Assembly (NCBI RefSeq): GCF_003019035.1
Contig: NZ_CP027447.1
DNA: 64,000 nucleotides
Source: Escherichia coli
GTDB lineage: Bacteria; Pseudomonadota; Gammaproteobacteria; Enterobacterales; Enterobacteriaceae
Strand: one strand, 5' to 3'
Part shown: piece after piece, positions 50,914 to 64,000 of the stretch
How the letters are laid out: each line of letters starts with the position of its first letter
Numbering within the stretch: position 1 is the stretch's first letter
The notes under the pieces: model-generated
The model's database searches: none
The model's input: the letters and a program-made list of their open reading frames with translations, nothing else
Told to the model about the DNA's origin: nothing
Translations under genes and position numbers: made by a program

Positions 50914-50943
50914 AAGGCGCTGCATCGACAGCGCCTTTTCTTT
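50914..50943 (+). terminator. Rho-independent terminator of metG
   Basis: AAGGCGCTG-catcga-CAGCGCCTT hairpin followed by TTTCTTT. Confidence 0.8.
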
Positions 50944-51044
50944 ATAAATTCCTAAAGTTGTTTTCTTGCGATTTTGTCTCTCTCTAACCCGCATAAATAC
51001 TGGTAGCATCAGCATTCAACTGGATAAAATTACAGGGATGCAGA

Positions 51045-54000
51045 ATGAGACACTTTATCTATCAGGACGAAAAATCACATAAATTCTGGGCGGTGGAGCA
51101 GCAGGGAAACGAGTTGCATATCTGTTGGGGAAAAGTTGGCACCAAAGGGCAAAACCAAGTAAAAAGTTTTGCGGATGCTGCGGCAGCGGCAAAAGCGGAG
51201 CTTAAGCTGATCGCGGAGAAGGTGAAGAAGGGATATGTGGAGCAAGCGAAGGATAATTCTTTGCAACCTTCCCAAACGGTAACGGACTCTCTCAAGGTAG
51301 CGGACTTATCCACCATTATTCAGGAACAACCCTCTTTCGTAGCAGAAACCCGTGCGGCTGACAAAAATACAGATGCTGTTTTACCGTGGCTGGCAAAAGA
51401 TATTGCTGTCGTTTTTCCGCTTGAAGTCGTACCCACCACCTTAAGCCATCGCCGCTTTCCCGGAGATCCTGTTACACCTGTAGATAAATTAACCCAGTTA
51501 CGTCGCTTAGCCTGTGGCGTGTCGCAACGGGATAACAAAACAGCTACATTTGACTTCAGCGCCTGTACTTTAGAGTGGCAAAACTTCATCGCTCAGGCGA
51601 TCGATCTGATTAACAGCCCGAAAACGACAAAATTACCATCACCGGTAATGGCTGTACTCGCGGCACTTGAACTGCACTGCACGAGATATAAAGAGCGTGA
51701 GGATGTTATGGATCAGATTATTCAGGAAGGCGGTCTGGAATATGCTACTGATGTAATAATACATCTTCAACAAATATCTATTGAATGGGATTATGTCAAC
51801 AATAATATTGTTTTCCTGTCGTCTGGCATTTCACCTGATTACTTGCAGCAATATTCCAGCTTTGAATTACGCCTACGTAAACATTTATCACTGGCGGAAG
51901 AGTCTCTCTGGCAAAAATGTGCACAAAAACTTATTGCCGCAGTTCCACATATTCCAGAATGGCGGCAACCATTAATTGCTTTGTTATTACCCGAAAAACC
52001 AGAAATTGCACATGAAATTGCCCAGCGTCTACTGGGGCAAAAGAAATTACCCTCGCTTGAGTGGCTAAAAATAGTGGCGACTGATGAGCACATTCTTGCC
52101 TCATTAGAAAAATATCACGAGCCATATGCCATTTTTGATGATTACTATTGTGGTGCGATATGGTCAGCCACCGTATTACAGGAGCAAGGTGTTGCAGCCC
52201 TGCCCCGATTTGCACCCTATGTCGCAAGTGACTACTGCGCCGATGTGTTGAGTCATATCAATCATCCGTTCGCATTAACACTGCTTATACGTGTAGCCGG
52301 GCATACTAAACGCTGTCACGATCGAATGACGAAAGCCTGCGCTGCGTTCCCACACGCAGCACTGGCAGCACTGGCGGAACTTCTAGTGCAAAAAGAAGAG
52401 AATAGTTGGCGCATTATGCTAATGACGATGCTTATCTCGCAACCTACACTAGCAGAACAGGTCATTCCCTGGCTTTCGACACCCGCAGTTGCAGTGCTGA
52501 AATCATGCCAGCAACAACTGAAACAGCCCTCAAACCATGCCAGTGCCGATCTACTGCCGGCCATAGTAGTCTCCCCACCATGGCTTTCGAAAAAGAAAAA
52601 ATCGCCGATTCCGGTGCTTGATTTAGCACCGCTCAACCTCGAATCCATATGCACAATAACCGACACAGAAGCTAAAGAGTTTCAAACTCATTGGGACTGG
52701 GAACCGCATAAGCCAGGTGAAGGTGCTAAAGATTTCCTTTACTCGCTGGGGTATCGCCGCTGGGATTTTGACACATATAAATATATCGGCGCTTCTGACT
52801 CGGCAATTGACGCATGGGAACGTGAGGACTTCGCTACACTCATCCAAATGTTTAAAGCCCACCATGCACCGTATCAGGGGGAGTGGCATCTCAACTCACT
52901 TCCCTTTTTACCTATGCAAAAAGCGATTAAACTATGGGAATTTCTCAGCAAAGAGCCGCATACCGCGGTAAAACCTGTCATGCTTTATTTGCGACTGGCA
53001 GGTATGAGTGGTTTTCTACACTCGTTTTCACGCTACCCTCAAGAAGGTTTTGCGGTTGCTAATTATTTTGCCGCAACGGAACTGGCTCCTGCCGTCGCCC
53101 GCGCCTTTAACAAACTCAAAACTCTACGACAAGACGCCCGCACCTGGCTGCTGAAATATCCGGAACATGCCATTACCGGCCTGTTGCCTGCGGCACTCGG
53201 CAAAGCCGGTGAATCCCAGGATAACGCCCGTGCCGCTTTACGTATGTTGATTGAAAATGGTTATCCGTCATTACTGCAAGAAATCGCCCAGCGTTATAAC
53301 CAGCCGGAAGTAACCGATGCGGTGAACGCTCTACTTGCGCTCGATCCCTTAGATAATCACCCGACTAAAATCCCGACACTTCCGGCCTTTTATCAGCCAT
53401 CGCTCTGGACGCGCCCGGTATTAAAAGCAAACGCCCAATCACTGCCAGATAGCGCCCTCTTCCACCTCGGTGAAATGCTCCGCTTCCCTCAGGAAGATAC
53501 GCTGTATCCGGGGTTATTACAGGTGAAAGACGCCTGTACTGCCGACTCACTGGCTGAGTTTGCCTGGGATCTGTTTACCGCCTGGCAGACCGCTGGCGTG
53601 CCGTCGAAAGAGAGCTGGGCGTTCACTGCATTAGGTGTTCTTGGCAACGATGACACCGCCCGCAAACTGACGCCATTAATCCGCGCCTGGCCTGGCGAAT
53701 CTCAGCATAAACGTGCCACCGTTGGGTTGGATATTCTCGCTGCTATCGGCAGCGATATCGCCCTGATGCAGCTTAACGGCATCGCCCAGAAACTGAAATT
53801 CAAAGCCTTACAGGAGCGGGCGAAAGAAAAAATTGCCGACATTGCCGAAAGTCGCGAACTCACAGTGGCAGAACTTGAAGATCGGTTAGCACCGGATCTC
53901 GGTCTGGATGATAACGGTTCGCTGCTGCTGGATTTCGGGCCACGGCAGTTCACCGTCAGCTTTGATGAAACCTTAAAACCGTTTGTGCGTGATGCTTCCG

Positions 54001-54833
54001 GCAGCCGCCTGAAAGACTTGCCTAAACCGAACAAAAGCGATGATGAAACCCAAGCGAACGATGCAGTTAACCGCTACAAACTGTTGAAAAAAGATGCGCG
54101 TACCGTTGCCGCCCAGCAGGTAGCAAGGCTGGAATCCGCCATGTGCCTGCGCCGCCGCTGGTCGCCGGAAAACTTTCAGCTCTTCCTGGTTGAGCATCCG
54201 CTGGTTCGCCACTTAACCCGCCGTCTGATTTGGGGCGTTTATAGCACCGAAAACGAGCTACTGGCTTGCTTTCGCGTGGCGGAAGATAACAGCTACAGCA
54301 CCGCAGACGATGATCTTTTCACCCTGCCGGAAGGCGATATCTCTGTTGGCATTCCTCACGTTCTGGAAATATCACCCACGGATGCTGCCGCCTTTGGTCA
54401 ACTTTTTGCCGACTACGAACTGCTACCGCCGTTCCGCCAGCTCGACCGTAACAGTTACGCCCTGACAGAAGCCGAGCGCAACGCCAGCGAACTGACCCGC
54501 TGGGCAGGCAGAAAATGCCCGAGCGGTCGGGTAATGGGGCTGGCGAATAAAGGCTGGATAAAGGGCACCCCGCAGGATGGAGGCTGGATCGGCTGGATGA
54601 TCAAACCTCTCGGTCGCTGGTCGTTAATCATGGAAATCAATGAAGGATTTGCAGTTGGTATGTCGCCAGCCGAACTCAGTGCCGAGCAACTCTTAAGTAA
54701 GCTGTGGCTATGGGAAGGCAAAGCGGAAAGCTATGGCTGGGGGAGCAATTCAACACAGGAAGCGCAGTTCTCCGTACTCGATGCCATCACCGCCAGCGAG
54801 CTAATTAACGATATTGAAGCCCTTTTTGAATAA
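51045..54833 (+). CDS. yehH: Large WGR-like N-terminal domain protein YehH (MolR-like), intact
   Basis: 1262-aa uninterrupted ORF. N-terminus FIYQDEKSHKFWAVEQQGNELHICWGKVG looks like a WGR domain. It shares long collinear blocks with the downstream paralog. Confidence 0.85.
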   Translation: MRHFIYQDEKSHKFWAVEQQGNELHICWGKVGTKGQNQVKSFADAAAAAKAELKLIAEKVKKGYVEQAKDNSLQPSQTVTDSLKVADLSTIIQEQPSFVAETRAADKNTDAVLPWLAKDIAVVFPLEVVPTTLSHRRFPGDPVTPVDKLTQLRRLACGVSQRDNKTATFDFSACTLEWQNFIAQAIDLINSPKTTKLPSPVMAVLAALELHCTRYKEREDVMDQIIQEGGLEYATDVIIHLQQISIEWDYVNNNIVFLSSGISPDYLQQYSSFELRLRKHLSLAEESLWQKCAQKLIAAVPHIPEWRQPLIALLLPEKPEIAHEIAQRLLGQKKLPSLEWLKIVATDEHILASLEKYHEPYAIFDDYYCGAIWSATVLQEQGVAALPRFAPYVASDYCADVLSHINHPFALTLLIRVAGHTKRCHDRMTKACAAFPHAALAALAELLVQKEENSWRIMLMTMLISQPTLAEQVIPWLSTPAVAVLKSCQQQLKQPSNHASADLLPAIVVSPPWLSKKKKSPIPVLDLAPLNLESICTITDTEAKEFQTHWDWEPHKPGEGAKDFLYSLGYRRWDFDTYKYIGASDSAIDAWEREDFATLIQMFKAHHAPYQGEWHLNSLPFLPMQKAIKLWEFLSKEPHTAVKPVMLYLRLAGMSGFLHSFSRYPQEGFAVANYFAATELAPAVARAFNKLKTLRQDARTWLLKYPEHAITGLLPAALGKAGESQDNARAALRMLIENGYPSLLQEIAQRYNQPEVTDAVNALLALDPLDNHPTKIPTLPAFYQPSLWTRPVLKANAQSLPDSALFHLGEMLRFPQEDTLYPGLLQVKDACTADSLAEFAWDLFTAWQTAGVPSKESWAFTALGVLGNDDTARKLTPLIRAWPGESQHKRATVGLDILAAIGSDIALMQLNGIAQKLKFKALQERAKEKIADIAESRELTVAELEDRLAPDLGLDDNGSLLLDFGPRQFTVSFDETLKPFVRDASGSRLKDLPKPNKSDDETQANDAVNRYKLLKKDARTVAAQQVARLESAMCLRRRWSPENFQLFLVEHPLVRHLTRRLIWGVYSTENELLACFRVAEDNSYSTADDDLFTLPEGDISVGIPHVLEISPTDAAAFGQLFADYELLPPFRQLDRNSYALTEAERNASELTRWAGRKCPSGRVMGLANKGWIKGTPQDGGWIGWMIKPLGRWSLIMEINEGFAVGMSPAELSAEQLLSKLWLWEGKAESYGWGSNSTQEAQFSVLDAITASELINDIEALFE

Positions 54834-54842
54834 GGAAAGAGC

Positions 54843-57800
54843 ATGGACAAGGAATTACCGTGGCTGGCGGATAACGCGCAACTGGAACTGAAATATAAAA
54901 AGGGTAAAACACCACTCAGCCATCGCAATTGGCCGGGTGAACCGGTGCCTGTTATCACTGAAAGCATCATCCAGACACTGGGTGATGAATTGCTACACAT
55001 TGCTGAGAAGAAAAAAAACATTGTCTGGCGTTATGATAATTTTTCACTGGAGTGGCAGTCCGCCATCACGCAGGCCATCAACTTGATCGGCGAACACAAA
55101 CCCTCAATCCCGGCCCGGACAATGGCGGCGCTAGCCTGTATCGCGCAAAATGATAGCCAACAGTTACTCGACGAAATCGTCCAACAAGAGGGACTGGAAT
55201 ATGCGACTGAAGTGGTGATTGCACGCCAGTTTATTGTACGGTGTTATGAGAGTGATCCTCTGGTAGTAACATTGCAGTATCAGAAGGAGGACTATGGCTA
55301 TGGCTATGGCTATGGCTATGGCTATGGCTATGGTTATCGCTCAGAAACCTATAACGAATTCGATCTCCGACTGCGTAAGCATCTCTCTCTGGCAGAGGAA
55401 AGCTGCTGGCAGCGTTGCGCCGACAAACTCATTGCCGCACTGCCAGGACTACCCCAAGTTCGCCGTCCTTTTATTGCACTCATCCTCCCGGAAAAACCAG
55501 AAATCGCCAATGAGTTGGTAGGCCTTGAATGCCCGTGGACTCATTTTCATTCTAAGGAGTGGTTAAAAGTTGTTGCTACTGACCACAGGGCAGTGGGAAA
55601 ACTCGAACGCTACTGGAGCCAGGATATATTTAGCGATCGCGAAGCCAGCTACATGTCGCATGAAAACCACTTCGGCTACGCGGCCTGCGCCGCCCTTTTG
55701 CGCGAACAAGGAATTGCAGCCGTTCCACGCCTCGCGATGTATGCCCATAAAGAAGATTGCGGTAGCCTGCTGGTACAAATTAACCATCCGCAGGTCATCC
55801 GCACCCTGCTGTTAGTTGCTGATAAAAACAAACCCAGCCTGCAACGTGTGGCTAAATACAGTAAAAACTTCCCCCATGCGACGCTTGCCGCACTGGCAGA
55901 GCTTCTGGCGTTAAAAGAACCGCCTGCACGCCCTGGTTATCCAATCATCGAAGACAAAAAGCTGCCTGCACAGCAAAAAGCTCGAGATGAATACTGGCGT
56001 ACGCTGTTACAAACGCTGATGGCATCGCAGCCACAACTGGCAGAAGAGGTGATGCCGTGGTTAAGTACTCAAGCCCAGGCAGTGCTGAATAGTTATTTAT
56101 CGGCACCGCCCAAAACGGTTATTGATAGCACCGATAACATCCAAATGCCTGAAATCCTCGTTTCACCACCGTGGCGTAGTAAGAAAAAAATGACAGTTCC
56201 ACGTCTTGATTTGGCACCGTTCGAATTAACGCCGCAAGTTTACTGGCAACCAGGCGAACGAGAGAGGCTTGCCGCCACTGAGTCTGCCCGTTATTTCAGC
56301 ACGGAATCTCTTGCGGAACGCATGGAACAAAAAAGTGGACGAGTTGTATTACAGGAGCTGGGTTTTGGAGATGATGTATGGCTGTTTTTGAATTATATAC
56401 TCCCCGGAAAACTGGATGCTGCACGCAATTCACTCATTGTTCAGTGGCATTACTACCCAGGGCGGGTTGAAGAGATCATGAATGGCTGGAGCTCCCCGGA
56501 AGCTCAATTAGCAGAACAGGCGCTTCGCAACGGTCACGTAGAAGTGTTAATTAACATATGGGAAAATGACAGCTACTCACGCTATCGTCGGGAAAAGAGT
56601 ATCTGGAACCTGTATTTATTGGCGCAGTTGCCGCGTGAGATGGCTTTGACTTTCTGGCTACGTATCAATGAGAAAAAGCATCTGTCTGCGGGTGAGGACT
56701 ATTATCTCAGTATCTTCGGATTGGATGCTCTACCAGGTCTGCTGTTGGCTTTTTCACATCGTCCAAAAGAAACATTTCCATTAATTTTAAATTTCGGCGC
56801 AACAGAACTGGCCCTGCCCGTTGCCCGCGTCTGGCGACGTTTCGCGGCGCAGCGTGATCTGGCTCGCCAGTGGATTTTACATTGGCCGGAACATACAGCT
56901 ACTGCACTTATCCCTCTTGTCTTCACCAAATCCAGCGATAATAGCGAAGCTGCATTACTTGCCCTGCGTTTACTTTACGAACAGGGACATGGCGAGTTAC
57001 TGCAAACCGTGGCAAACCGCTGGCAGCGTACAGATGTGTGGCCTGCCCTGGAGCAATTACTTAAACAGAGTCCAATAGAGATTTACCCGACACGCATTCC
57101 AAAAGCCCCTGATTTCTGGCAGCCGGCAATGTGGTCCAGGCCGCGCCTTATCACGAATAATCAACCTGTTACCGATGACGCTCTGGAAATTATCGGCGAA
57201 ATGCTGTGCTTTACCCAGGGCGGACGTTTTTATAGCGGACTGGAACAACTGAAAACTTTCTGCCAGCCGCAAACGCTGGCAGCTTTTGCCTGGGATCTCT
57301 TCACCGCGTGGCAACAAGCTGGTGCTACCGCAAAAGACAACTGGGCATTTCTGGCGTTAAGTCTCTTTGGCGACGAAAGCACGGCACGGGATCTGACGAC
57401 ACAGATCCTTGCCTGGCCACAAGAGGGCAAATCTGCCCGTGCTGTCAGTGGTCTGAATATACTTACTCAGATGAATAATGATATGGCACTGATACAGCTG
57501 CATCATATATCGCAACGGGCGAAATCCCGCCCCTTACGTGATAACGCGGCGGAATTTCTTCAGGTGGTCGCAGAAAATCGTGGGCTAAGCCAGGAACAGT
57601 TAGCGGACAGATTAGTCCCAACACTGGGTCTTGATGATCCGCAGGCGTTGAGTTTTGATTTTGGTCCCCGGCAGTTTACCGTTCGCTTTGATGAAAACCT
57701 TAACCCGGTTATCTTTGATCAGCAAAACGTTCGCCAGAAAAGCGTTCCCCGGTTGCGCGCCGATGACGATCAACTGAAAGCGCCCGAGGCACTGGCCCGA

Positions 57801-58505
57801 CTAAAAGGGCTAAAAAAAGATGCCACTCAGGTGAGCAAAAACCTGCTCCCACGTCTTGAAACTGCCCTGCGCACCACCCGACGCTGGTCGCTGGCAGATT
57901 TTCATTCTCTGTTTGTTAATCATCCCTTTACCCGCCTGGTTACTCAGCGATTGATATGGGCGGTTTATCCGGCAAATGAACCGCGTCGTTTACTCAACGC
58001 CTTTCGTGTGGCCGCTGAGGGGGAGTTCTGCAATGAGCAAGATGAGCCAATTGACCTGCCTGCCGATGCTCTGATTGGCATTGCCCACCCGTTAGAAATG
58101 ACAGCAGAAATGCGCAGTGAATTTGCACAGCTTTTTGCCGATTACGAAATTATGCCGCCTTTTCGCCAGTTGACGCGGCGCACAGTGCTGCTCACGCCTG
58201 ACGAGTCAGCCAGTAATAGTTTGAATCGCTGGGAAGGTAAATCTGCTACCGTTGGGCAGCTTATGGGAATGCGATACAAAGGCTGGGAGTCAGGCTATGA
58301 GAACGCATTTGTCTATGACCTGGGCGAGTACCGGCTGGTCCTTAAGTTTTCATCCGGTTTTAACCACTACAATGTTGATAGCAAAGCGCTAATGAGCTTC
58401 CGTTCTCTTCATGTATACCGTGACAATAAATCTGTCACTTTTGCCGAACTTGATGTGTTTGATTTGAGTGAAGCGTTAAGCGCACCCGACGTCATTTTCC
58501 ATTAA
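54843..58505 (+). CDS. yehI: Large paralog of YehH lacking the WGR-like N-terminus (YehI)
   Basis: 1220-aa ORF. Shared blocks with YehH include LRLRKHLSLAEES, PEKPEIA, DLFTAWQ, LDFGPRQFTV and QLFADYE. Confidence 0.85.
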   Translation: MDKELPWLADNAQLELKYKKGKTPLSHRNWPGEPVPVITESIIQTLGDELLHIAEKKKNIVWRYDNFSLEWQSAITQAINLIGEHKPSIPARTMAALACIAQNDSQQLLDEIVQQEGLEYATEVVIARQFIVRCYESDPLVVTLQYQKEDYGYGYGYGYGYGYGYRSETYNEFDLRLRKHLSLAEESCWQRCADKLIAALPGLPQVRRPFIALILPEKPEIANELVGLECPWTHFHSKEWLKVVATDHRAVGKLERYWSQDIFSDREASYMSHENHFGYAACAALLREQGIAAVPRLAMYAHKEDCGSLLVQINHPQVIRTLLLVADKNKPSLQRVAKYSKNFPHATLAALAELLALKEPPARPGYPIIEDKKLPAQQKARDEYWRTLLQTLMASQPQLAEEVMPWLSTQAQAVLNSYLSAPPKTVIDSTDNIQMPEILVSPPWRSKKKMTVPRLDLAPFELTPQVYWQPGERERLAATESARYFSTESLAERMEQKSGRVVLQELGFGDDVWLFLNYILPGKLDAARNSLIVQWHYYPGRVEEIMNGWSSPEAQLAEQALRNGHVEVLINIWENDSYSRYRREKSIWNLYLLAQLPREMALTFWLRINEKKHLSAGEDYYLSIFGLDALPGLLLAFSHRPKETFPLILNFGATELALPVARVWRRFAAQRDLARQWILHWPEHTATALIPLVFTKSSDNSEAALLALRLLYEQGHGELLQTVANRWQRTDVWPALEQLLKQSPIEIYPTRIPKAPDFWQPAMWSRPRLITNNQPVTDDALEIIGEMLCFTQGGRFYSGLEQLKTFCQPQTLAAFAWDLFTAWQQAGATAKDNWAFLALSLFGDESTARDLTTQILAWPQEGKSARAVSGLNILTQMNNDMALIQLHHISQRAKSRPLRDNAAEFLQVVAENRGLSQEQLADRLVPTLGLDDPQALSFDFGPRQFTVRFDENLNPVIFDQQNVRQKSVPRLRADDDQLKAPEALARLKGLKKDATQVSKNLLPRLETALRTTRRWSLADFHSLFVNHPFTRLVTQRLIWAVYPANEPRRLLNAFRVAAEGEFCNEQDEPIDLPADALIGIAHPLEMTAEMRSEFAQLFADYEIMPPFRQLTRRTVLLTPDESASNSLNRWEGKSATVGQLMGMRYKGWESGYENAFVYDLGEYRLVLKFSSGFNHYNVDSKALMSFRSLHVYRDNKSVTFAELDVFDLSEALSAPDVIFH
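55293..55334 (+). repeat. Hexanucleotide microsatellite (TATGGC)6 plus TATGGT inside yehI, encoding a (Tyr-Gly)7 tract
   Basis: Seen directly; translated as DYGYGYGYGYGYGYRS. The paralog YehH has no repeat at the equivalent position. Confidence 0.9.
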
Positions 58506-58565: not shown

Positions 58566-58886
58566 ATGATCGTGCAAAAAGAGCTGGTCACTATTTACGA
58601 TTATGAGGCCCCTGTACCTGAAGAGCCGTTTTCCTTCAGACTTGAGATCCATAAATGCTCTGAATTATTTACAGGTTCCATCTACCGGCTGGAGCGATTC
58701 CGGCTACATCCAACATTTCATCAACGTGATCGAGAGGATATCGACCCGCTAATAAATGATGCGTTGATTTATATAAGAGATGAGTTTATTGATGAGCGAA
58801 AATTACGGGGCGAATCACCAGAAACGGTAATAGCCATTTTTAATCGTGAACTACAGAATATATTCAACCAAGAAATAGAAAAATAG
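58566..58886 (+). CDS. yehK: Small protein of unknown function YehK
   Basis: 106-aa ORF; AGGGG-rich upstream region; followed by a hairpin terminator. Confidence 0.75.
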   Translation: MIVQKELVTIYDYEAPVPEEPFSFRLEIHKCSELFTGSIYRLERFRLHPTFHQRDREDIDPLINDALIYIRDEFIDERKLRGESPETVIAIFNRELQNIFNQEIEK

Positions 58887-58940: not shown

Positions 58941-59030
58941 TTACTTCAACAAATCAATCAGCCGTAACAGAGCCACTAATAACTCCAGTACGGCAATGAG
59001 CACGGTTAACTTTTGTGTCAGCGTGTCCAT
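58941..59030 (-). CDS. Unannotated 29-aa hydrophobic peptide, TisB/DinQ-like type I toxin candidate (MDTLTQKLTVLIAVLELLVALLRLIDLLK)
   Basis: Hand translation of the minus strand. AAGGAG sits 5 nt before the ATG. The product is a single amphipathic helix resembling TisB and DinQ from memory. It is below the ORF-track size cut-off. Confidence 0.55.
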   Translation of the reverse strand: MDTLTQKLTVLIAVLELLVALLRLIDLLK

Positions 59031-59211: not shown

Positions 59212-59239
59212 ATTATAAATCTCATTATCTTAATTGCAA
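59212..59239 (-). promoter_or_regulatory. Putative sigma70 promoter for the toxin-like mRNA (-35 TTGCAA, 16-nt spacer, -10 TATAAT on the minus strand)
   Basis: Near-consensus hexamers seen directly. The -35 TTGCAA is palindromic and is shared with the divergent plus-strand promoter. Confidence 0.5.
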
Positions 59240-59262
59240 CGGGGTCCACCGATGGTTATAAT
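59234..59262 (+). promoter_or_regulatory. Putative sigma70 promoter for the plus-strand sRNA (-35 TTGCAA, 17-nt spacer, -10 TATAAT)
   Basis: Consensus -10 and near-consensus -35 with optimal spacing, about 7 nt upstream of the predicted sRNA 5' end. Confidence 0.55.
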
Positions 59263-59268
59263 TCGTTC

Positions 59269-59352
59269 GTTGGAACACGATGTTGCACAGGCCGTGGTGT
59301 TAGGCCTGAAAGTAGTAAATAAAAGAACCTGCCTCACCAGCAGGTTTTTTTA
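59269..59352 (+). ncRNA. Putative ~80-nt trans-acting antitoxin-like sRNA
   Basis: Predicted 5' end GTTGGAACACGATGTTGCAC; internal stem-loop CAGGCC-N9-GGCCTG at 59288-59308; AU-rich linker; terminator ACCTGC-ctcacca-GCAGGT plus a run of 7 T (59327-59352). Confidence 0.5.
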
Positions 59353-59462: not shown

Positions 59463-60551
59463 ATGTCACCGCAGAATAATCATCTGCAGCGTCCGCCTGC
59501 CGCTGTGTTATACGCCGATGAACTGGCAAAATTAAAACAAAATGATCACGCACCTTGCCCGCCCGGTTGGCAGTTAAGTTTGCCTGCGGCCCGTGTTTTT
59601 ATCCTTGGCGACGAAGCACAAAATATTAGCCGTAAAGTCGTGATTAGCCCCTCCGCTGTCGAACGCATGTTAGTCACTCTCGCTACCGGGCGCGGTTTGA
59701 TGTTGGTGGGGGAACCTGGCACCGCAAAATCGCTCCTGTCTGAATTACTGGCAACCGCTATTAGCGGCGATGCCGGGTTAACCATCCAGGGCGGCGCATC
59801 TACTACTGAAGATCAAATCAAGTACGGCTGGAACTACGCCCTGCTTATCAACCATGGTCCGTCAACGGAAGCACTGGTCCCTGCCCCGCTTTACCAGGGA
59901 ATGCGCGACGGCAAAATCGTCCGTTTTGAAGAGATAACGCGTACACCGCTGGAAGTACAAGACTGTCTGTTAGGTATGCTTTCTGACAGGGTGATGACGG
60001 TGCCGGAGCTCACCGCTGAAGCCAGTCAGCTCTATGCGCGGGAAGGCTTTAATATTATTGCCACTGCCAATACCCGCGATCGCGGCGTCAATGAAATGAG
60101 TGCTGCGCTAAAGCGTCGTTTCGATTTTGAAACTGTCTTTCCGATTATGGATTTCGCTCAGGAGCTGGAGCTTGTCGCCAGTGCTTCGGCGCGTTTGCTG
60201 GCCCATAGCGGTATTCCGCATAAAGTGCCTGACGCGGTACTGGAGTTACTGGTCCGCACCTTCCGCGATCTGCGTGCCAACGGCGAAAAGAAAACGTCAA
60301 TGGATACACTAACAGCGATTATGTCCACCGCTGAAGCCGTGAACGTGGCCCACGCTGTGGGCGTCCGCGCCTGGTTTTTAGCGAATCGCGCAGGTGAGCC
60401 AGCCGATCTGGTGGACTGTATTGCCGGAACCATCGTCAAAGATAACGAAGAAGATCGCGCGCGTCTGCGCCGTTACTTCGAACAGCGAGTCGCCACACAT
60501 AATGAAGCTCACTGGCAGGCTTATTATCAAGCTCGCCACCGCCTGCCGTGA
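59463..60551 (+). CDS. yehL: MoxR-like AAA+ ATPase YehL
   Basis: 362 aa from the ATG at 59463. Walker A (LVGEPGTAKS), Walker B-like (IVRFEEITR) and a sensor region (TANTRDRGVNEMSAALKRRFDF). The ORF track adds 22 codons upstream. Confidence 0.85.
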   Translation: MSPQNNHLQRPPAAVLYADELAKLKQNDHAPCPPGWQLSLPAARVFILGDEAQNISRKVVISPSAVERMLVTLATGRGLMLVGEPGTAKSLLSELLATAISGDAGLTIQGGASTTEDQIKYGWNYALLINHGPSTEALVPAPLYQGMRDGKIVRFEEITRTPLEVQDCLLGMLSDRVMTVPELTAEASQLYAREGFNIIATANTRDRGVNEMSAALKRRFDFETVFPIMDFAQELELVASASARLLAHSGIPHKVPDAVLELLVRTFRDLRANGEKKTSMDTLTAIMSTAEAVNVAHAVGVRAWFLANRAGEPADLVDCIAGTIVKDNEEDRARLRRYFEQRVATHNEAHWQAYYQARHRLP

Positions 60552-60561
60552 GGAAAGATGC

Positions 60562-62841
60562 ATGAGCGAGCCGTTAATTGTCGGCATCCGGCATCATAGT
60601 CCGGCCTGCGCCCGGCTGGTGAAATCGTTAATCGAAAGCCAGCGGCCACGATACGTGTTGATTGAAGGCCCGGCTGATTTTAATGACCGGGTAGACGAAC
60701 TGTTGTTAGCCCACCAGCTTCCGGTAGCTATTTACAGTTATTGCCAGTATCAGGATGGTGCGGCCCCCGGGCGTGGTGCCTGGACGCCATTTGCTGAATT
60801 TTCGCCGGAGTGGCAGGCGCTACAAGCCGCACGTCGTATTCAGGCACAAACTTACTTCATCGATTTGCCTTGCTGGGCACAAAGTGAAGAAGAGGACGAT
60901 TCGCCTGATACGCAAGAGGAAAGCCAGACCTTGCTGCTGCGTGCCACCCGCATGGATAACAGCGACACCCTGTGGGATCACTTGTTCGAAGATGAAAGCC
61001 AGCAAACTGCATTACCCTCTGCACTGGCGCACTATTTTGCCCAACTGCGGGGCGACGCCTCCGGCGATGCACTCAATCGTCAGCGCGAAGCCTTTATGGC
61101 CCGCTGGATTGCATGGGCGATGCAGCAAAATAATGGCGACGTATTAGTCGTCTGCGGAGGCTGGCACGCTCCGGCACTGGCAAAAATGTGGCGCGAATGC
61201 CCGCAAGAAATTAACACGCCAGAATTGCTCTTACTGGATGATGCCGTTACAGGTTGCTATCTCACGCCATACAGTGAAAAGCGCCTTGATGTGCTGGCAG
61301 GATACCTTTCAGGAATGCCTGCCCCGGTCTGGCAAAACTGGTGCTGGCGGTGGGGCTTGCAGCAGGCAGGTGAACAACTGCTGAAAACGGTTCTTACCCG
61401 TTTGCGCCAGCACCACTTGCCTGCTTCAACAGCGGATATGGCTGCCGCTCATCTGCATGCGATGGCACTGGCACAGTTGCGCGGTCATACACTACCGTTA
61501 CGCACTGACTGGCTGGATGCCATAGCAGGATCGCTGATTAAAGAAGCCCTGAATGCGCCGTTGCCGTGGAGCTATCGCGGCGTTATTCATCCCGATACCG
61601 ATCCGATTCTGCTAACGTTGATAGACACATTAGCGGGTGACGGATTCGGTAAACTTGCCCCTTCTACGCCACAACCGCCTCTGCCAAAAGATGTCACCTG
61701 CGAACTGGAACGTACCGCAATCTCTCTTCCGGCGGAGCTTACCTTAAATCGCTTTACCTCCGATGGACTGGCGCAAAGTCAGGTGTTACATCGGCTGGTA
61801 ATACTGGAGATCCCAGGGGTTGTGCGCCAGCAGGGAAGTACACTGACACTTGCAGGCAACGGTGAAGAACGCTGGAAATTAACCCGCCCGCTTAGCCAAC
61901 ATGCGGCATTAATTGAGGCCGCCTGCTTTGGTGCCACACTCCAGGAAGCCGCACGCCATAAATTAGAAGCCGATATGCTGGACGCGGGTGGAATCGGCAG
62001 TATCACCACATGTCTTAGCCAGGCGGCGTTAGCGGGTCTGGCGTCCTTCAGTCAACAATTACTGGAGCAACTTACATTATTAATCGCCCAGGAAAATCAG
62101 TTTGCCGAAATGGGCCAGGCGCTGGAAGTGCTATACGCCTTATGGCGGCTGGATGAAATTAGCGGTATGCAAGGCGCGCAGATATTACAGACGACGTTAT
62201 GCGCAGCTATCGATCGCACACTCTGGCTGTGTGAATCCAACGGCAGACCGGATGAAAAGGAGTTTCACGCTCACCTGCATAGCTGGCAAGCGCTTTGCCA
62301 TATCCTGCGCGATCTACATAGCGGCGTTAATTTACCCGGCGTTTCGCTTTCTGCGGCGGTAGCCTTACTGGAGCGCCGCAGTCAGGCGATTCATGCCCCG
62401 GCGCTGGATCGCGGCGCGGCTCTTGGCGCACTAATGCGTCTGGAACATCCCAACGCCAGTGCCGAAGCGGCGCTGACGATGCTGGCGCAGTTATCCCCGG
62501 CACAATCCGGCGAGGCGCTGCACGGTTTGCTGGCATTAGCCCGTCATCAACTGGCCTGTCAGCCGGCATTTATCGCCGGTTTCAGTAGTCATTTAAATCA
62601 ACTGAGTGACGACGATTTTATTAACGCCCTGCCCGATTTACGCGCGGCGATGGCCTGGCTACCACCACGAGAACGCGGGACGCTGGCGCATCAGGTGCTT
62701 GAGCATTACCAGCTCGCACAGCTTCCCATTTCAGCGCTGCAAATGCCGTTGCATTGTCCACCGCAAGCCATTGCACATCATCAACAACTCGAACAGCAGG
62801 CACTGGCATCGCTGCAACACTGGGGAGTTTTCCATGTCTGA
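60562..62841 (+). CDS. yehM: Large protein of unknown function YehM
   Basis: 759 aa from the ATG at 60562 (MSEPLIVGIRHHSPACARLV), 10 nt after the yehL stop. Its stop overlaps the yehP start (ATGTCTGA). Confidence 0.8.
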   Translation: MSEPLIVGIRHHSPACARLVKSLIESQRPRYVLIEGPADFNDRVDELLLAHQLPVAIYSYCQYQDGAAPGRGAWTPFAEFSPEWQALQAARRIQAQTYFIDLPCWAQSEEEDDSPDTQEESQTLLLRATRMDNSDTLWDHLFEDESQQTALPSALAHYFAQLRGDASGDALNRQREAFMARWIAWAMQQNNGDVLVVCGGWHAPALAKMWRECPQEINTPELLLLDDAVTGCYLTPYSEKRLDVLAGYLSGMPAPVWQNWCWRWGLQQAGEQLLKTVLTRLRQHHLPASTADMAAAHLHAMALAQLRGHTLPLRTDWLDAIAGSLIKEALNAPLPWSYRGVIHPDTDPILLTLIDTLAGDGFGKLAPSTPQPPLPKDVTCELERTAISLPAELTLNRFTSDGLAQSQVLHRLVILEIPGVVRQQGSTLTLAGNGEERWKLTRPLSQHAALIEAACFGATLQEAARHKLEADMLDAGGIGSITTCLSQAALAGLASFSQQLLEQLTLLIAQENQFAEMGQALEVLYALWRLDEISGMQGAQILQTTLCAAIDRTLWLCESNGRPDEKEFHAHLHSWQALCHILRDLHSGVNLPGVSLSAAVALLERRSQAIHAPALDRGAALGALMRLEHPNASAEAALTMLAQLSPAQSGEALHGLLALARHQLACQPAFIAGFSSHLNQLSDDDFINALPDLRAAMAWLPPRERGTLAHQVLEHYQLAQLPISALQMPLHCPPQAIAHHQQLEQQALASLQHWGVFHV

Positions 62842-63970
62842 ACTGAACGATCTTCTGACCACCCGTGAGCTACAACGCTGGCGATTAATTCTTGGCGAAG
62901 CGGCAGAAACGACGCTTTGTGGGCTGGATGACAACGCCCGGCAGATAGACCACGCGCTGGAGTGGCTGTACGGGCGCGATCCTGAACGGCTCCAGCGTGG
63001 TGAACGCTCTGGTGGATTAGGTGGCTCAAATCTCACCACCCCTGAGTGGATCAACAGTATTCACACGCTGTTTCCGCAACAGGTGATTGAGCGACTGGAA
63101 AGCGATGCCGTACTGCGCTACGGCATTGAAGATGTGGTGACGAATCTCGACGTGCTGGAACGTATGCAGCCTTCTGAAAGCCTGCTACGCGCCGTTTTGC
63201 ACACCAAACATCTGATGAATCCCGAAGTACTGGCTGCCGCCCGCCAGATAGTGCGCCAGGTTGTTGAAGAAATTATGGCTCGACTGGCAAAGGAAGTTCG
63301 TCAGGCTTTTTCTGGTGTCCGCGATCGCCGTCGCCGCTCATTTATTCCACTGGCGCGAAACTTTGATTTCAAAAGTACTCTGCGCGCCAACCTGCAACAC
63401 TGGCACCCGCAACACGGCAAGTTGTATATCGAATCCCCCCGCTTTAACAGCCGCATTAAACGCCAAAGCGAACAATGGCAACTGGTCTTACTGGTTGATC
63501 AAAGCGGATCAATGGTGGACTCGGTGATCCACTCAGCGGTGATGGCGGCCTGTTTATGGCAGTTACCCGGTATTCGTACCCATCTGGTGGCGTTTGACAC
63601 CAGCGTGGTTGATCTCACGGCAGACGTTGCCGATCCGGTAGAGTTATTAATGAAAGTGCAATTAGGCGGCGGAACCAATATCGCCAGTGCCATGGAATAT
63701 GGTCGGCAACTTATTGAACAACCAGCGAAAAGCGTCATTATCCTCGTGAGTGATTTTTATGAAGGGGGTTCATCATCATTGCTGACGCATCAGGTGAAAA
63801 AGTGTGTCCAGAGCGGCATCAAAGTGCTGGGGCTGGCAGCGCTCGACAGCACCGCAACGCCTTGCTATGACCGCGATATGGCCCAGGCGCTGGTTAATGT
63901 TGGCGCACAAATAGCCGCAATGACACCGGGTGAACTGGCTACCTGGCTTGCGGAGAATTTGCAGTCATGA
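62834..63970 (+). CDS. yehP: von Willebrand factor A domain protein YehP
   Basis: 378 aa from the ATG at 62834. MIDAS DxSxS motif (LLVDQSGSMVDS) and a C-terminal vWA fold signature (IILVSDFYEGG). Confidence 0.85.
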   Translation: MSELNDLLTTRELQRWRLILGEAAETTLCGLDDNARQIDHALEWLYGRDPERLQRGERSGGLGGSNLTTPEWINSIHTLFPQQVIERLESDAVLRYGIEDVVTNLDVLERMQPSESLLRAVLHTKHLMNPEVLAAARQIVRQVVEEIMARLAKEVRQAFSGVRDRRRRSFIPLARNFDFKSTLRANLQHWHPQHGKLYIESPRFNSRIKRQSEQWQLVLLVDQSGSMVDSVIHSAVMAACLWQLPGIRTHLVAFDTSVVDLTADVADPVELLMKVQLGGGTNIASAMEYGRQLIEQPAKSVIILVSDFYEGGSSSLLTHQVKKCVQSGIKVLGLAALDSTATPCYDRDMAQALVNVGAQIAAMTPGELATWLAENLQS

Positions 63971-64000
63971 ATTCACTACGTCCGGAATTATTAGAACTGA
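63967..64000 (+). CDS. yehQ: YehQ, 5' end only; gene continues beyond window
   Basis: ATG at 63967 overlaps the yehP stop (ATGA); translation MNSLRPELLEL...; identity is inferred from gene order only. Confidence 0.55.
   Translation, partial: MNSLRPELLEL

What the first reader, a model, noticed from the sequence alone, without database searches (positions are those of the whole stretch)
51045..58505. Tandem giant paralogs YehH and YehI, with a WGR-like N-terminal domain only on the first copy
Seen in the sequence: two adjacent ORFs of 1262 and 1220 aa share long collinear conserved blocks, and only YehH carries the N-terminal WGR-like segment. YehH is uninterrupted here, whereas from memory its K-12 counterpart (molR) is annotated as a split pseudogene. 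Proteins of this size with a nucleic-acid or ADP-ribose-associated N-terminal domain, sitting next to an AAA+/vWA module, are candidate sensor or scaffold components.
Basis: partly seen in the sequence, partly recalled or inferred. Interest (0 to 1): 0.6.

Follow-up and report, generated by a model that had tools for sequence, protein, structure and literature searches.

The report
Variable giant partners of YehLMPQ machine
Two adjacent, very large E. coli genes (yehH/molR and yehI) are true paralogues that appear to be interchangeable, highly variable partner subunits of a widespread but unstudied ATP-driven protein machine, which the laboratory strain K-12 carries only in broken form.

Summary
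ORFs 51045-54833 (1262 aa) and 54843-58505 (1220 aa) share 37% identity over ~1190 collinear residues. Both carry DUF4132; only the first carries WGR (E=3.7e-17). The K-12-type orthologue is a pseudogene (stop plus frameshift). All of this is already in RefSeq, Pfam and the SOS literature, where molR is a listed LexA-regulon gene.

What tools add:
- DUF4132 giants sit beside the block YehL (MoxR AAA+), YehM (DUF5682), YehP (vWA) and YehQ (SWIM) in 42 of 48 decidable loci across several phyla. Four of five loci seeded from YehM show the reverse link.
- Copy number runs from 1 to at least 8 in tandem, and from 2 to 3 within E. coli.
- The C-terminal half is 92-100% identical among E. coli alleles; a central segment is only 34-54% identical.
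- yehH-type genes were independently broken in 4 of 10 sampled genomes.
- Confident models show a HEAT-like helical scaffold plus a C-terminal module with no characterised structural relative and no enzyme fold.

Best reading (inferred): modular sensor/adaptor subunits that dock on a midasin-like AAA+/vWA remodeller, SOS-induced in E. coli. No function has been tested, dN/dS is below 1, and no PADLOC model matches.

The parts
51020..51035 (+). LexA (SOS) box-like site CTGGATAAAATTACAG (CTG-N10-CAG, AT-rich spacer), 10 nt upstream of the yehH ATG
   Evidence: Sequence read. It is the only match in the 64-kb window to CTGKATNNANNNNCAG (0.15 expected by chance). The metG-yehH intergenic region has 1 mismatch in 161 nt versus K-12. 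molR is listed among LexA-regulated genes with a 'known SOS box' in review PMC6590174. Only 13 of 20 positions match the TACTG(TA)5CAGTA consensus.
51045..54833 (+). yehH (molR orthologue, intact), 1262 aa: WGR + HEAT-like solenoid + DUF4132 + C-terminal alpha/beta domain
   Evidence: ORF; Pfam; 100% identical to E. coli SCU-301 WP_096986557.1; AlphaFold model of aa 100-1262 with pLDDT 89.8.
51060..51251 (+). WGR domain of YehH (aa 6-69)
   Evidence: PF05406 E=3.7e-17; PDB sequence match to 2ra8_A E=7e-16; WGKVG motif at aa 28.
52665..53114 (+). Hypervariable core of yehH (aa ~541-690)
   Evidence: 51-75% nucleotide identity to K-12 here versus 85-99% elsewhere in the gene. Mean pairwise protein identity is 34-54% among six intact E. 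coli alleles. This cassette version occurs at >=80% coverage in 649 of 5426 genomes. dS is saturated at 1.65 and dN/dS is 0.34.
54000..54557 (+). DUF4132 domain of YehH (aa 986-1171), within the conserved C-terminal half
   Evidence: PF13569 E=1.8e-51. The C-terminal half is 92-100% identical among E. coli alleles. 32 columns are invariant across 36 sequences from several phyla.
54843..58505 (+). yehI, 1220 aa: WGR-less paralogue with DUF4132 at aa 964-1148 (nt 57732-58286)
   Evidence: ORF; Pfam; BLASTP versus YehH; starts 9 nt after the yehH stop; annotated intact in all 10 sampled genomes.
58566..58886 (+). yehK, 106 aa, no recognised domain
   Evidence: ORF; annotated 'protein YehK'; no Pfam hit; no homologue detected in any of the non-Escherichia loci.
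59463..60551 (+). yehL, MoxR-type AAA+ ATPase (YehL subfamily), 362 aa
   Evidence: AAA_5 E=3.1e-33; Walker A GEPGTAKS; closest solved relatives are midasin AAA modules, E=2e-9; named as a MoxR subfamily in PMC3893208.
60562..62841 (+). yehM, DUF5682 protein, 759 aa
   Evidence: PF18934 E=4.8e-97; no PDB sequence relative.
62834..63970 (+). yehP, vWA (CoxE-like) protein, 378 aa
   Evidence: VWA_CoxE E=6.6e-71; MIDAS motif DQSGS; overlaps yehM by 8 nt.
63967..64000 (+). Start of yehQ (SWIM zinc-finger family, 666 aa in SCU-301); runs off the window
   Evidence: RefSeq annotation; Pfam SWIM E=0.0056; two CxCx5CxH motifs; pseudogene with an internal stop in the K-12-type record.

Best explanation
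YehH and YehI are interchangeable, modular partner subunits of the YehL-YehM-YehP-YehQ machine.

Proposed anatomy of each giant:
- a conserved C-terminal module (DUF4132 plus a small alpha/beta domain) that docks on the machine;
- a long HEAT-like helical scaffold whose central segment is highly variable and provides ligand specificity, most likely for a protein target;
- in the lead copy only, an N-terminal WGR domain that places the complex on DNA.

Proposed action: YehL (MoxR AAA+) and YehP (vWA/MIDAS) work like a split midasin, an ATP-driven remodeller that grips a partner through the MIDAS site and pulls. YehM and YehQ (two SWIM-like zinc motifs) would be structural or DNA-binding adaptors. 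In E. coli, transcription of the giants is switched on by DNA damage through LexA.

Proposed role: surveillance at DNA during genome stress, most plausibly against mobile or foreign DNA. Arrays of paralogues and divergent alleles would widen the range of targets.

Shown here: paralogy, domain content, gene linkage, variability pattern, fold class, and intact ATPase and MIDAS motifs.
Taken from the literature: LexA regulation.
Inferred only: docking, the target, DNA binding and the biological role.

My estimates for the separate steps: the giants function together with YehLMPQ, about 0.75; the variable region is a specificity determinant, about 0.5; the role is conflict or defence, about 0.3.
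For: Linkage:
- 42 of 48 decidable DUF4132-seeded loci from Gamma-, Beta- and Deltaproteobacteria, Myxococcota, Holophagales and Actinobacteria have YehL and YehM homologues alongside, usually in the order giants-L-M-P-Q and often with zero or overlapping spacing.
- Of five loci seeded independently from DUF5682, all five show AAA_5-DUF5682-VWA_CoxE followed by a ~680-aa protein, and four have DUF4132 giants within 10 kb.

Modularity:
- The C-terminal half is 92-100% identical among E. coli alleles, against 34-54% in the aa ~547-650 core.
- The C-terminal module has 32 invariant columns across phyla.

Copy-number plasticity:
- 1 to 4 large copies in core-linked loci, and arrays of at least 8 in Massilia.
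- 2 versus 3 copies within E. coli.
- 38 of 42 core-linked loci keep at least one WGR-bearing copy, and in most multi-copy arrays (8 of 11) a WGR-bearing copy comes first.

Fold:
- Confident models (pLDDT 89.8 and 91.5) match only HEAT/ARM scaffolds and no enzyme.

Machine apparently intact:
- Walker A GEPGTAKS, MIDAS DQSGS, and a midasin-like AAA domain.

Regulation:
- SOS-box-like site at 51020-51035 in an almost invariant intergenic region.
- molR is listed as LexA-regulated (PMC6590174).
- Deinococcus DUF4132 and WGR genes are induced in the DdrO/IrrE DNA-damage regulon (PMC8533742).

Recurrent loss:
- Four independent types of lesion in 10 sampled genomes.
- A resistance transposon is inserted here in 184 ST131 isolates (PMC9334617).
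Against: - No experiment or interaction prediction supports docking.
- dN/dS is below 1 in every region (0.07-0.34). The hypervariable core has saturated dS, so it reflects old alleles moved by recombination, not demonstrated positive selection.
- None of six proteins matches any PADLOC defence model.
- The locus is present in 5410 of 5426 E. coli genomes at a fixed position between housekeeping genes, unlike typical accessory defence islands.
- Stand-alone WGR-DUF4132 genes with no machine nearby exist: 6 loci with at least 6 kb of flank on both sides, plus L003-L006. One DUF5682 block has no giant within 10 kb.
- No E. coli-type LexA box lies upstream of 105 DUF4132 genes in other taxa, so SOS control is not a family trait.
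- The E. coli box matches only 13 of 20 consensus positions.
Confidence: 0.45

Rival explanations
1. A DNA-damage tolerance or repair accessory with no conflict role. WGR recognises breaks or gaps, as it does in PARP enzymes; the solenoid scaffolds repair factors; and the AAA+/vWA motor clears stalled nucleoprotein complexes after SOS induction.
For: molR is in the LexA regulon and the box is conserved in E. coli. Deinococcus DUF4132 and WGR genes are strongly induced by the radiation/desiccation regulon. YehQ has SWIM-like zinc motifs. The locus is near-universal and chromosomal in E. coli.
Against: A housekeeping repair factor would not be expected to show 34-54% protein identity between alleles of one species. 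Nor would it be expected to form arrays of at least 8 paralogues, to be broken in 4 of 10 sampled genomes including K-12 and O157:H7, or to lack SOS boxes outside E. coli.
Confidence: 0.25
2. A dedicated maturation chaperone system, like other MoxR-vWA pairs (CoxD/CoxE, NorQ/NorD, CbbQ/CbbO, RavA/ViaA). The DUF4132 giants would be the clients or the adaptors for an enzyme complex encoded elsewhere.
For: YehL is a named MoxR subfamily whose relatives act as maturation factors (PMC3893208). The AAA_5 plus VWA_CoxE pairing is confirmed. The giants have no enzyme fold, which is consistent with an adaptor role.
Against: No enzyme gene is conserved next to the block across 48 loci. Client-specific chaperones do not usually have variable-copy, hypervariable partners. 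The WGR and SWIM domains point towards nucleic acid.
Confidence: 0.12
3. The historical annotation is right: MolR is a transcription factor that regulates molybdate metabolism, using WGR as its DNA-binding domain.
For: Sources still use the names 'molybdate metabolism regulator' and 'MolR family transcriptional regulator'. [quoted passage not shown]
Against: No helix-turn-helix or other transcription-factor domain was detected. A 1262-aa HEAT-like scaffold is atypical for a repressor or activator. The gene's conserved neighbours are an AAA+/vWA machine, not molybdenum genes. Molybdate genes were unaffected when the Deinococcus homologues were induced. K-12, where mol regulation was defined, carries only a pseudogene.
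Confidence: 0.05
4. The genes are decaying remnants without current function in E. coli, and the variability reflects relaxed constraint.
For: Pseudogenes are frequent (4 of 10 sampled). yehQ is also broken in K-12. A transposon insertion is tolerated in a successful ST131 lineage.
Against: dN/dS is 0.07-0.09 in the C-terminal half and 0.16-0.34 elsewhere between intact alleles, which indicates purifying selection. Many E. coli clusters keep the intact 1262-aa ORF. yehI is intact in 10 of 10 sampled genomes. The block is conserved across phyla.
Confidence: 0.08

Closest known systems
MoxR AAA+ / vWA partner systems (RavA-ViaA, CoxD-CoxE, NorQ-NorD, CbbQ-CbbO); YehL is one of the seven named MoxR subfamilies
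   Same: An AAA_5 MoxR-type ATPase (YehL) is encoded next to a CoxE-like vWA protein with an intact MIDAS motif (YehP), in one tightly spaced operon.
   Different: The block always carries two further large proteins (DUF5682 and a SWIM-motif protein), plus a variable number of ~1200-aa WGR/DUF4132 giants, and no client enzyme gene. The searchable literature assigns no function to the YehL subfamily.
Midasin/Rea1 (eukaryotic AAA_5 ring + MIDAS domain ribosome-assembly remodeller)
   Same: The closest solved sequence relatives of YehL are midasin AAA modules (E=2e-9). The AAA_5 plus MIDAS combination is the same, here split across two genes.
   Different: Midasin is a single 4700-4900-residue polypeptide with six AAA modules that acts on pre-60S particles. 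YehL has one AAA module and unrelated partners. This is a resemblance of parts, not orthology.
WGR-domain proteins (PARP1-3 WGR; bacterial WGR proteins such as PDB 2ra8)
   Same: Significant WGR match (PF05406 E=3.7e-17; 2ra8 E=7e-16; WGKVG motif).
   Different: No PARP catalytic, BRCT or zinc-finger domain is present. The match to PARP3 WGR is insignificant by sequence (E=0.76). Whether this WGR binds DNA breaks has not been tested.
MoxR-vWA-beta-propeller ternary conflict systems (Pfam bpMoxR family)
   Same: They share a MoxR plus vWA core. The bpMoxR profile hits YehL weakly (E=0.0074), and some homologues carry '(weak)' or '(faint)' bpMoxR hits.
   Different: No beta-propeller component is present. 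The bpMoxR score is below significance. The third and fourth components here are DUF5682 and a SWIM protein, and the variable partners are HEAT-like giants.
Polymorphic specificity subunits at fixed chromosomal loci (for example type I restriction HsdS; comparison from general knowledge)
   Same: A conserved docking part combined with deeply diverged, recombining variable segments among strains of one species, at a fixed locus.
   Different: There is no sequence or fold relation and no methyltransferase or nuclease partner. This is an analogy only.

Membership tests
Pfam WGR (PF05406) | Significant match to the family profile | tested here: met
   YehH aa 6-69, E=3.7e-17, 62.6 bits. YehI has no hit.
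Pfam WGR (PF05406) | Conserved W-G-R/K signature | tested here: met
   WGKVG at aa 28 in YehH; absent from YehI.
Pfam WGR (PF05406) | Nucleic-acid (DNA break) binding | not testable with these tools
   Needs EMSA or fluorescence anisotropy with nicked, gapped and duplex DNA.
Pfam DUF4132 (PF13569) | Significant match to the family profile in both proteins | tested here: met
   YehH E=1.8e-51 and YehI E=1.2e-46. All 36 aligned homologues match.
MoxR AAA+ / vWA partner system (YehL subfamily) | AAA_5-type ATPase with Walker A, adjacent to a vWA protein with a MIDAS motif | tested here: met
   AAA_5 E=3.1e-33 and VWA_CoxE E=6.6e-71; GEPGTAKS and DQSGS. yehL->yehM gap is 10 nt; yehM and yehP overlap by 8 nt.
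MoxR AAA+ / vWA partner system (YehL subfamily) | The DUF4132 giants belong to the same functional unit (conserved linkage) | tested here: met
   42 of 48 decidable loci in the forward test and 4 of 5 in the reverse test. Linkage only; physical association was not tested.
MoxR AAA+ / vWA partner system (YehL subfamily) | ATPase activity stimulated by the vWA partner | not testable with these tools
   Needs a biochemical assay.
E. coli LexA (SOS) regulon | LexA box in the promoter region | tested here: met
   CTGGATAAAATTACAG at 51020-51035 has the CTG-N10-CAG core with an AT-rich spacer and is unique in the window. It matches 13 of 20 consensus positions. The strict CTGT-N8-ACAG form is absent.
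E. coli LexA (SOS) regulon | LexA binding and DNA-damage induction | not testable with these tools
   Review PMC6590174 lists molR under 'Known SOS box'. This was not measured for the intact allele.
Known anti-phage defence systems (PADLOC-DB v2.0.0) | Match of any component to a defence-system profile | tested here: not met
   No hit at E<=0.01 for YehH, YehI, YehK, YehL, YehM or YehP.
MoxR-vWA-beta-propeller ternary system | bpMoxR-type ATPase plus a beta-propeller third component | tested here: not met
   bpMoxR E=0.0074 only. No propeller domain is found in any neighbour.
MolR-type transcription factor (historical name) | A recognised transcription-factor DNA-binding domain and linkage to molybdenum genes | tested here: not met
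   Only WGR and DUF4132 were detected. The conserved neighbours are YehLMPQ, not mod/moa/moe genes.

The most novel reading that the evidence does not exclude
The WGR/DUF4132 giants together with YehLMPQ form a previously unrecognised, DNA-damage-triggered genome-surveillance (anti-phage or anti-mobile-element) system. In it, arrays of polymorphic HEAT-repeat receptors feed targets to a midasin-like AAA+/vWA motor. It would have been overlooked because E. coli K-12 is a natural double mutant (molR and yehQ are both pseudogenes).
Probability: 0.25. Interest if true: 0.85.

Novelty: new variant of a known kind. Interest (0 to 1): 0.5.

Why it matters
molR has been listed as an SOS gene since 2000, yet it has no known function. 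One reason is that the model strain K-12 carries it, and yehQ, only as pseudogenes.

This strain has the whole set intact, and the giants turn out to be the variable partners of a widely distributed but uncharacterised MoxR/vWA machine. That turns an orphan SOS gene into a testable system:
- move the intact locus into K-12;
- test DNA-damage survival, phage, plasmid and prophage phenotypes;
- test for physical coupling between the giants and YehLMPQ.

If the variable segment proves to be a specificity determinant, the arrays of up to eight or more paralogues would be a new example of receptor diversification in bacteria. If the locus instead proves to be a repair accessory, it would fill a gap in the SOS regulon. 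The same region is also a recurrent insertion site for a blaCTX-M-15 transposon in ST131.

Tried and rejected
1. Strict LexA consensus CTGT-N8-ACAG: no match in the window. Only the looser CTG-N10-CAG site fits.
2. SOS boxes in other taxa: none upstream of 105 DUF4132 genes. I therefore dropped the idea that SOS control is a property of the whole family.
3. Positive selection: dN/dS is below 1 in every region, and dS is saturated in the variable core. I do not claim diversifying selection.
4. Phage origin: PHROGs has near-identical small families for YehH, I, K, M, P and Q, but the phage collection has no match. I read these families as host DNA included in prophage calls.
5. Plasmid carriage: rare, mostly megaplasmids or chromosomes labelled as plasmids.
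7. PDB sequence and profile searches for the DUF4132 module, YehM, YehP and YehQ found nothing.
8. YehK: no homologue next to distant DUF4132 genes, so I treat it as lineage-specific.
9. The first homologue search was saturated by E. coli alleles. The 50%-clustered library was needed to reach distant relatives.
10. Literature searches for DUF5682, and for WGR+SWIM+vWA+MoxR, found no description of the system.


Full report
OBSERVATION

BLASTP gives 37% identity and 53% positives over about 1190 collinear residues (E=0). YehI begins at the position equivalent to YehH residue 110, so the similarity is real paralogy rather than low complexity.

Pfam finds WGR (PF05406, aa 6-69, E=3.7e-17) and DUF4132 (aa 986-1171, E=1.8e-51) in YehH. 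In YehI it finds DUF4132 only (aa 964-1148, E=1.2e-46).

The window is 100% identical over yehH to E. coli SCU-301 (NZ_CP051751.1). It differs from that record by two SNPs upstream and by the length of a repeat inside yehI. The local gene order is apbC(-), metG, yehH, yehI, yehK, yehL, yehM, yehP, yehQ.

THE K-12 CLAIM

In a K-12-type record the yehH orthologue is annotated 'frameshifted; internal stop', and yehQ carries an 'internal stop'. I located a stop at codon 275 and a 1-nt insertion near nt 2869.

The intact form is common. Many 1262-aa E. coli clusters exist, several on >=1000 contigs, and NCBI already names them 'WGR and DUF4132 domain-containing protein' or 'MolR family transcriptional regulator'.

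In ten sampled complete genomes:
- yehH-type genes are intact in six;
- they are broken in four, each by a different lesion: K-12 type, O6:H16 (stop), AHB6 (truncation), and O157:H7 (two copies, one with a stop and one frameshifted);
- yehI is intact in all ten.

A published ST131 sublineage carries a blaCTX-M-15 transposon in this 'DUF4132 region' in 184 isolates (PMC9334617).

WHAT IS ALREADY KNOWN

- molR appears among LexA-regulated genes with a 'known SOS box' in an SOS review (PMC6590174).
- YehL names one of seven MoxR AAA+ subfamilies, and no function is assigned to it (PMC3893208).
- Searches for DUF4132, DUF5682, the yeh gene names, and WGR+SWIM+vWA+MoxR found no paper that describes these genes as a system or tests a function.
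The biology is open.

REGULATION

A CTG-N10-CAG site with an AT-rich spacer (CTGGATAAAATTACAG, 51020-51035) lies 10 nt upstream of the ATG. It is the only such site in the window. It matches 13 of 20 consensus positions, and the strict CTGT-N8-ACAG form is absent.

The metG-yehH intergenic region differs from K-12 at 1 of 161 positions, although the coding sequence is about 11% diverged.

In Deinococcus, a DUF4132 gene and a WGR gene are strongly induced in the DdrO/IrrE DNA-damage regulon (PMC8533742). However, none of 105 DUF4132 genes in other taxa has an E. coli-type box upstream, so SOS control is not a trait of the whole family.

THE PARTNERS

- YehL is an AAA_5 ATPase (E=3e-33) with Walker A GEPGTAKS.
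- YehP is a CoxE-like vWA protein (E=7e-71) with MIDAS motif DQSGS.
- YehM is DUF5682 (E=5e-97).
- YehQ has a weak SWIM hit and two CxCx5CxH motifs.
- yehL, yehM, yehP and yehQ are spaced by 10, -8 and -4 nt, and yehH and yehI by 9 nt.
- YehL's closest solved relatives by sequence are the AAA modules of midasin (E=2e-9). YehM, YehP and YehQ have none.

LINKAGE ACROSS BACTERIA

DUF4132 giants form a large family, with 2643 representatives at 50% clustering scoring E<=1e-30.

Forward test. A scan of one genome per species returned 67 loci, which I annotated locally with phmmer:
- Of 71 loci with a large DUF4132 ORF, 42 have YehL and YehM homologues alongside, usually the full L-M-P-Q set directly downstream.
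- 6 lack them despite at least 6 kb of flank on both sides.
- 23 are undecidable because the flanks are too short.
- The taxa include Klebsiella, Erwinia, Serratia, Stenotrophomonas, Variovorax, Burkholderia, Massilia, myxobacteria, Holophagales and actinomycetes.

Reverse test. Five loci seeded from a distant DUF5682 protein all show AAA_5-DUF5682-VWA_CoxE followed by a ~680-aa protein. Four of them have DUF4132 giants within 10 kb.

Three distant WGR-DUF4132 genes stand alone on their contigs, which have limited flanks. Linkage is therefore strong but not obligatory.

COPY NUMBER

- Core-linked loci carry 1 (31 loci), 2 (3 loci), 3 (7 loci) or 4 (1 locus) large copies.
- 38 of 42 core-linked loci include a WGR-bearing copy, and in most multi-copy arrays (8 of 11) a WGR-bearing copy is first.
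- Massilia species have arrays of at least 8 tandem giants (L028, L056).
- Within E. coli, some strains (CS6L, AVS0710, AHB6, O157:H7) carry three giants.
- The window's YehH is the orthologue of the middle copy B, with the C-terminal half 94-100% identical. Copy A is a deep paralogue, only 10-50% identical in the N-terminal half.
- The first 50 residues of the window's YehH are nevertheless closer to copy A (92%) than to copy B (82%). This hints at recombination inside the WGR segment.

VARIABILITY

Against K-12, the yeh block is more diverged than its flanks:
- yehH 89.3%, yehQ 93.0%, yehK 93.7%, yehI 94.2%, yehL/M/P about 96%;
- thiD, metG, yehR, yehS and btsR about 98%.

Within yehH, divergence is concentrated at nt ~1500-2250 (51-75% identity).

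Among six intact E. coli alleles:
- the C-terminal half (aa ~690-1262) is 92-100% identical;
- the N-terminal part is 55-89% identical;
- the core at aa ~547-650 is only 34-54% identical.

The window's cassette version is found in 649 of 5426 genomes.

dN/dS is 0.07-0.09 in the C-terminal half and 0.16-0.34 elsewhere, with dS saturated in the core. The genes are under purifying selection. The variable core represents old allelic lineages exchanged by recombination, and positive selection is not shown.

STRUCTURE

A model of aa 100-1262 is confident (pLDDT 89.8, pTM 0.82). It shows helical repeats up to about model residue 850, followed by beta/alpha elements.
- Every member of the C-terminal alignment hits only DUF4132, and its profile finds nothing in PDB sequences.
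- The module has 32 invariant columns across phyla.
- No catalytic fold is recognisable anywhere in the protein.

INTERPRETATION

The data fit a modular design. A conserved C-terminal module would be the natural docking surface for the conserved YehLMPQ proteins. A variable scaffold would provide specificity. An optional WGR would provide DNA association. By analogy with midasin and other MoxR/vWA pairs, the motor would grip a partner through the MIDAS site and remodel or extract it. These steps are inferred, not shown.

For the biological role I favour surveillance during genome stress, possibly against mobile DNA. The supporting points are SOS induction, paralogue arrays, deep allelic variation and recurrent loss.

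The counter-evidence is substantial:
- no PADLOC match;
- near-universal presence at a fixed locus in E. coli;
- dN/dS below 1.

A DNA-damage repair accessory is the main rival. The molybdate-regulator name has no support from domain content or gene context. I rate the system a new variant of a known kind: a MoxR/vWA system with an undescribed class of variable partners.

SIDE OBSERVATIONS

- The yehK-yehL spacer (576 nt here, about 307 nt in K-12) contains a zor-orz type I toxin-antitoxin locus. It comprises an OrzO/P RNA (RF02083, 98.9 bits, 59276-59351) and a 29-aa toxin ORF on the minus strand (58941-59030). This placement is already published (PMC2887945).
- yehI contains an in-frame hexanucleotide repeat that encodes (GY)n. 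Its length differs between the window, SCU-301 and K-12.

Noticed in passing
window 58941-59030 (-) and 59276-59351 (+): A zor-orz type I toxin-antitoxin locus sits in the yehK-yehL spacer. It comprises a 29-aa hydrophobic toxin ORF (MDTLTQKLTVLIAVLELLVALLRLIDLLK) and an OrzO/P antitoxin RNA (Rfam RF02083, 98.9 bits), with divergent promoter-like hexamers at 59212-59262. K-12 lacks it (spacer about 307 nt versus 576 nt). The placement is already described in PMC2887945.
   Followed up: yes
window 55292-55341 (inside yehI): An in-frame hexanucleotide tandem repeat (CTATGG x 8.3) encodes a (GY)n run. YehI is 1220 aa in the window, 1230 aa in the SCU-301 record and 1210 aa in K-12-type and AVS0710, so the repeat looks length-polymorphic between very close strains.
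   Followed up: partly
L002 26627-28627 (K-12-type record, yehQ): yehQ (the SWIM protein of the machine) is also a pseudogene (internal stop) in the K-12-type genome. K-12 therefore lacks two components of the set, not just molR.
   Followed up: partly
L078-L082 (E. coli CS6L, AHB6, AVS0710, O157:H7): Some E. coli strains carry three tandem giants, with an extra deep paralogue (copy A, ~1266 aa with WGR) between metG and the yehH-type gene. In O157:H7 both upstream copies are pseudogenes. The first 50 residues of the window's YehH resemble copy A more than copy B, which suggests an A/B recombinant 5' end.
   Followed up: partly
L028, L042, L050, L056 (Massilia spp.): Tandem arrays of at least 8 DUF4132 giants (a mix of WGR-bearing and WGR-less copies) fill whole 20-kb loci. 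The same genomes also hold separate core-linked arrays and orphan copies.
   Followed up: partly
window 51045-58505 region; PMC9334617: The metG/DUF4132/yeh region is the chromosomal insertion site of the blaCTX-M-15 transposon TnMB1860 in 184 isolates of an ST131 papGII+ sublineage.
   Followed up: no
PHROGs families phrog_20839, 36602, 36295, 30700, 33984, 31592, 29006: Small PHROG families match YehH, I, K, M, P and Q almost end to end, yet the INPHARED phage collection has no nucleotide match. These families probably derive from host DNA included in a prophage prediction.
   Followed up: partly
L082 1-135 (AVS0710 yehK): yehK is annotated as frameshifted in strain AVS0710. YehK has no detectable homologue next to DUF4132 genes outside Escherichia, so it may be a lineage-specific and dispensable addition.
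   Followed up: no
L085 16544-17665: The one DUF5682 block without a DUF4132 giant has, two genes downstream of the YehQ-like gene, a 373-aa protein with a faint 'DNA_alkylation' (HEAT-like repeat) Pfam hit. It may be a different, smaller helical-repeat partner.
   Followed up: no
window 50914-50937 (+): A strong terminator-like hairpin (9 pairs, 6 G-C, followed by a T-run) lies directly after metG. yehH therefore probably has its own promoter in the 140-nt spacer.
   Followed up: no
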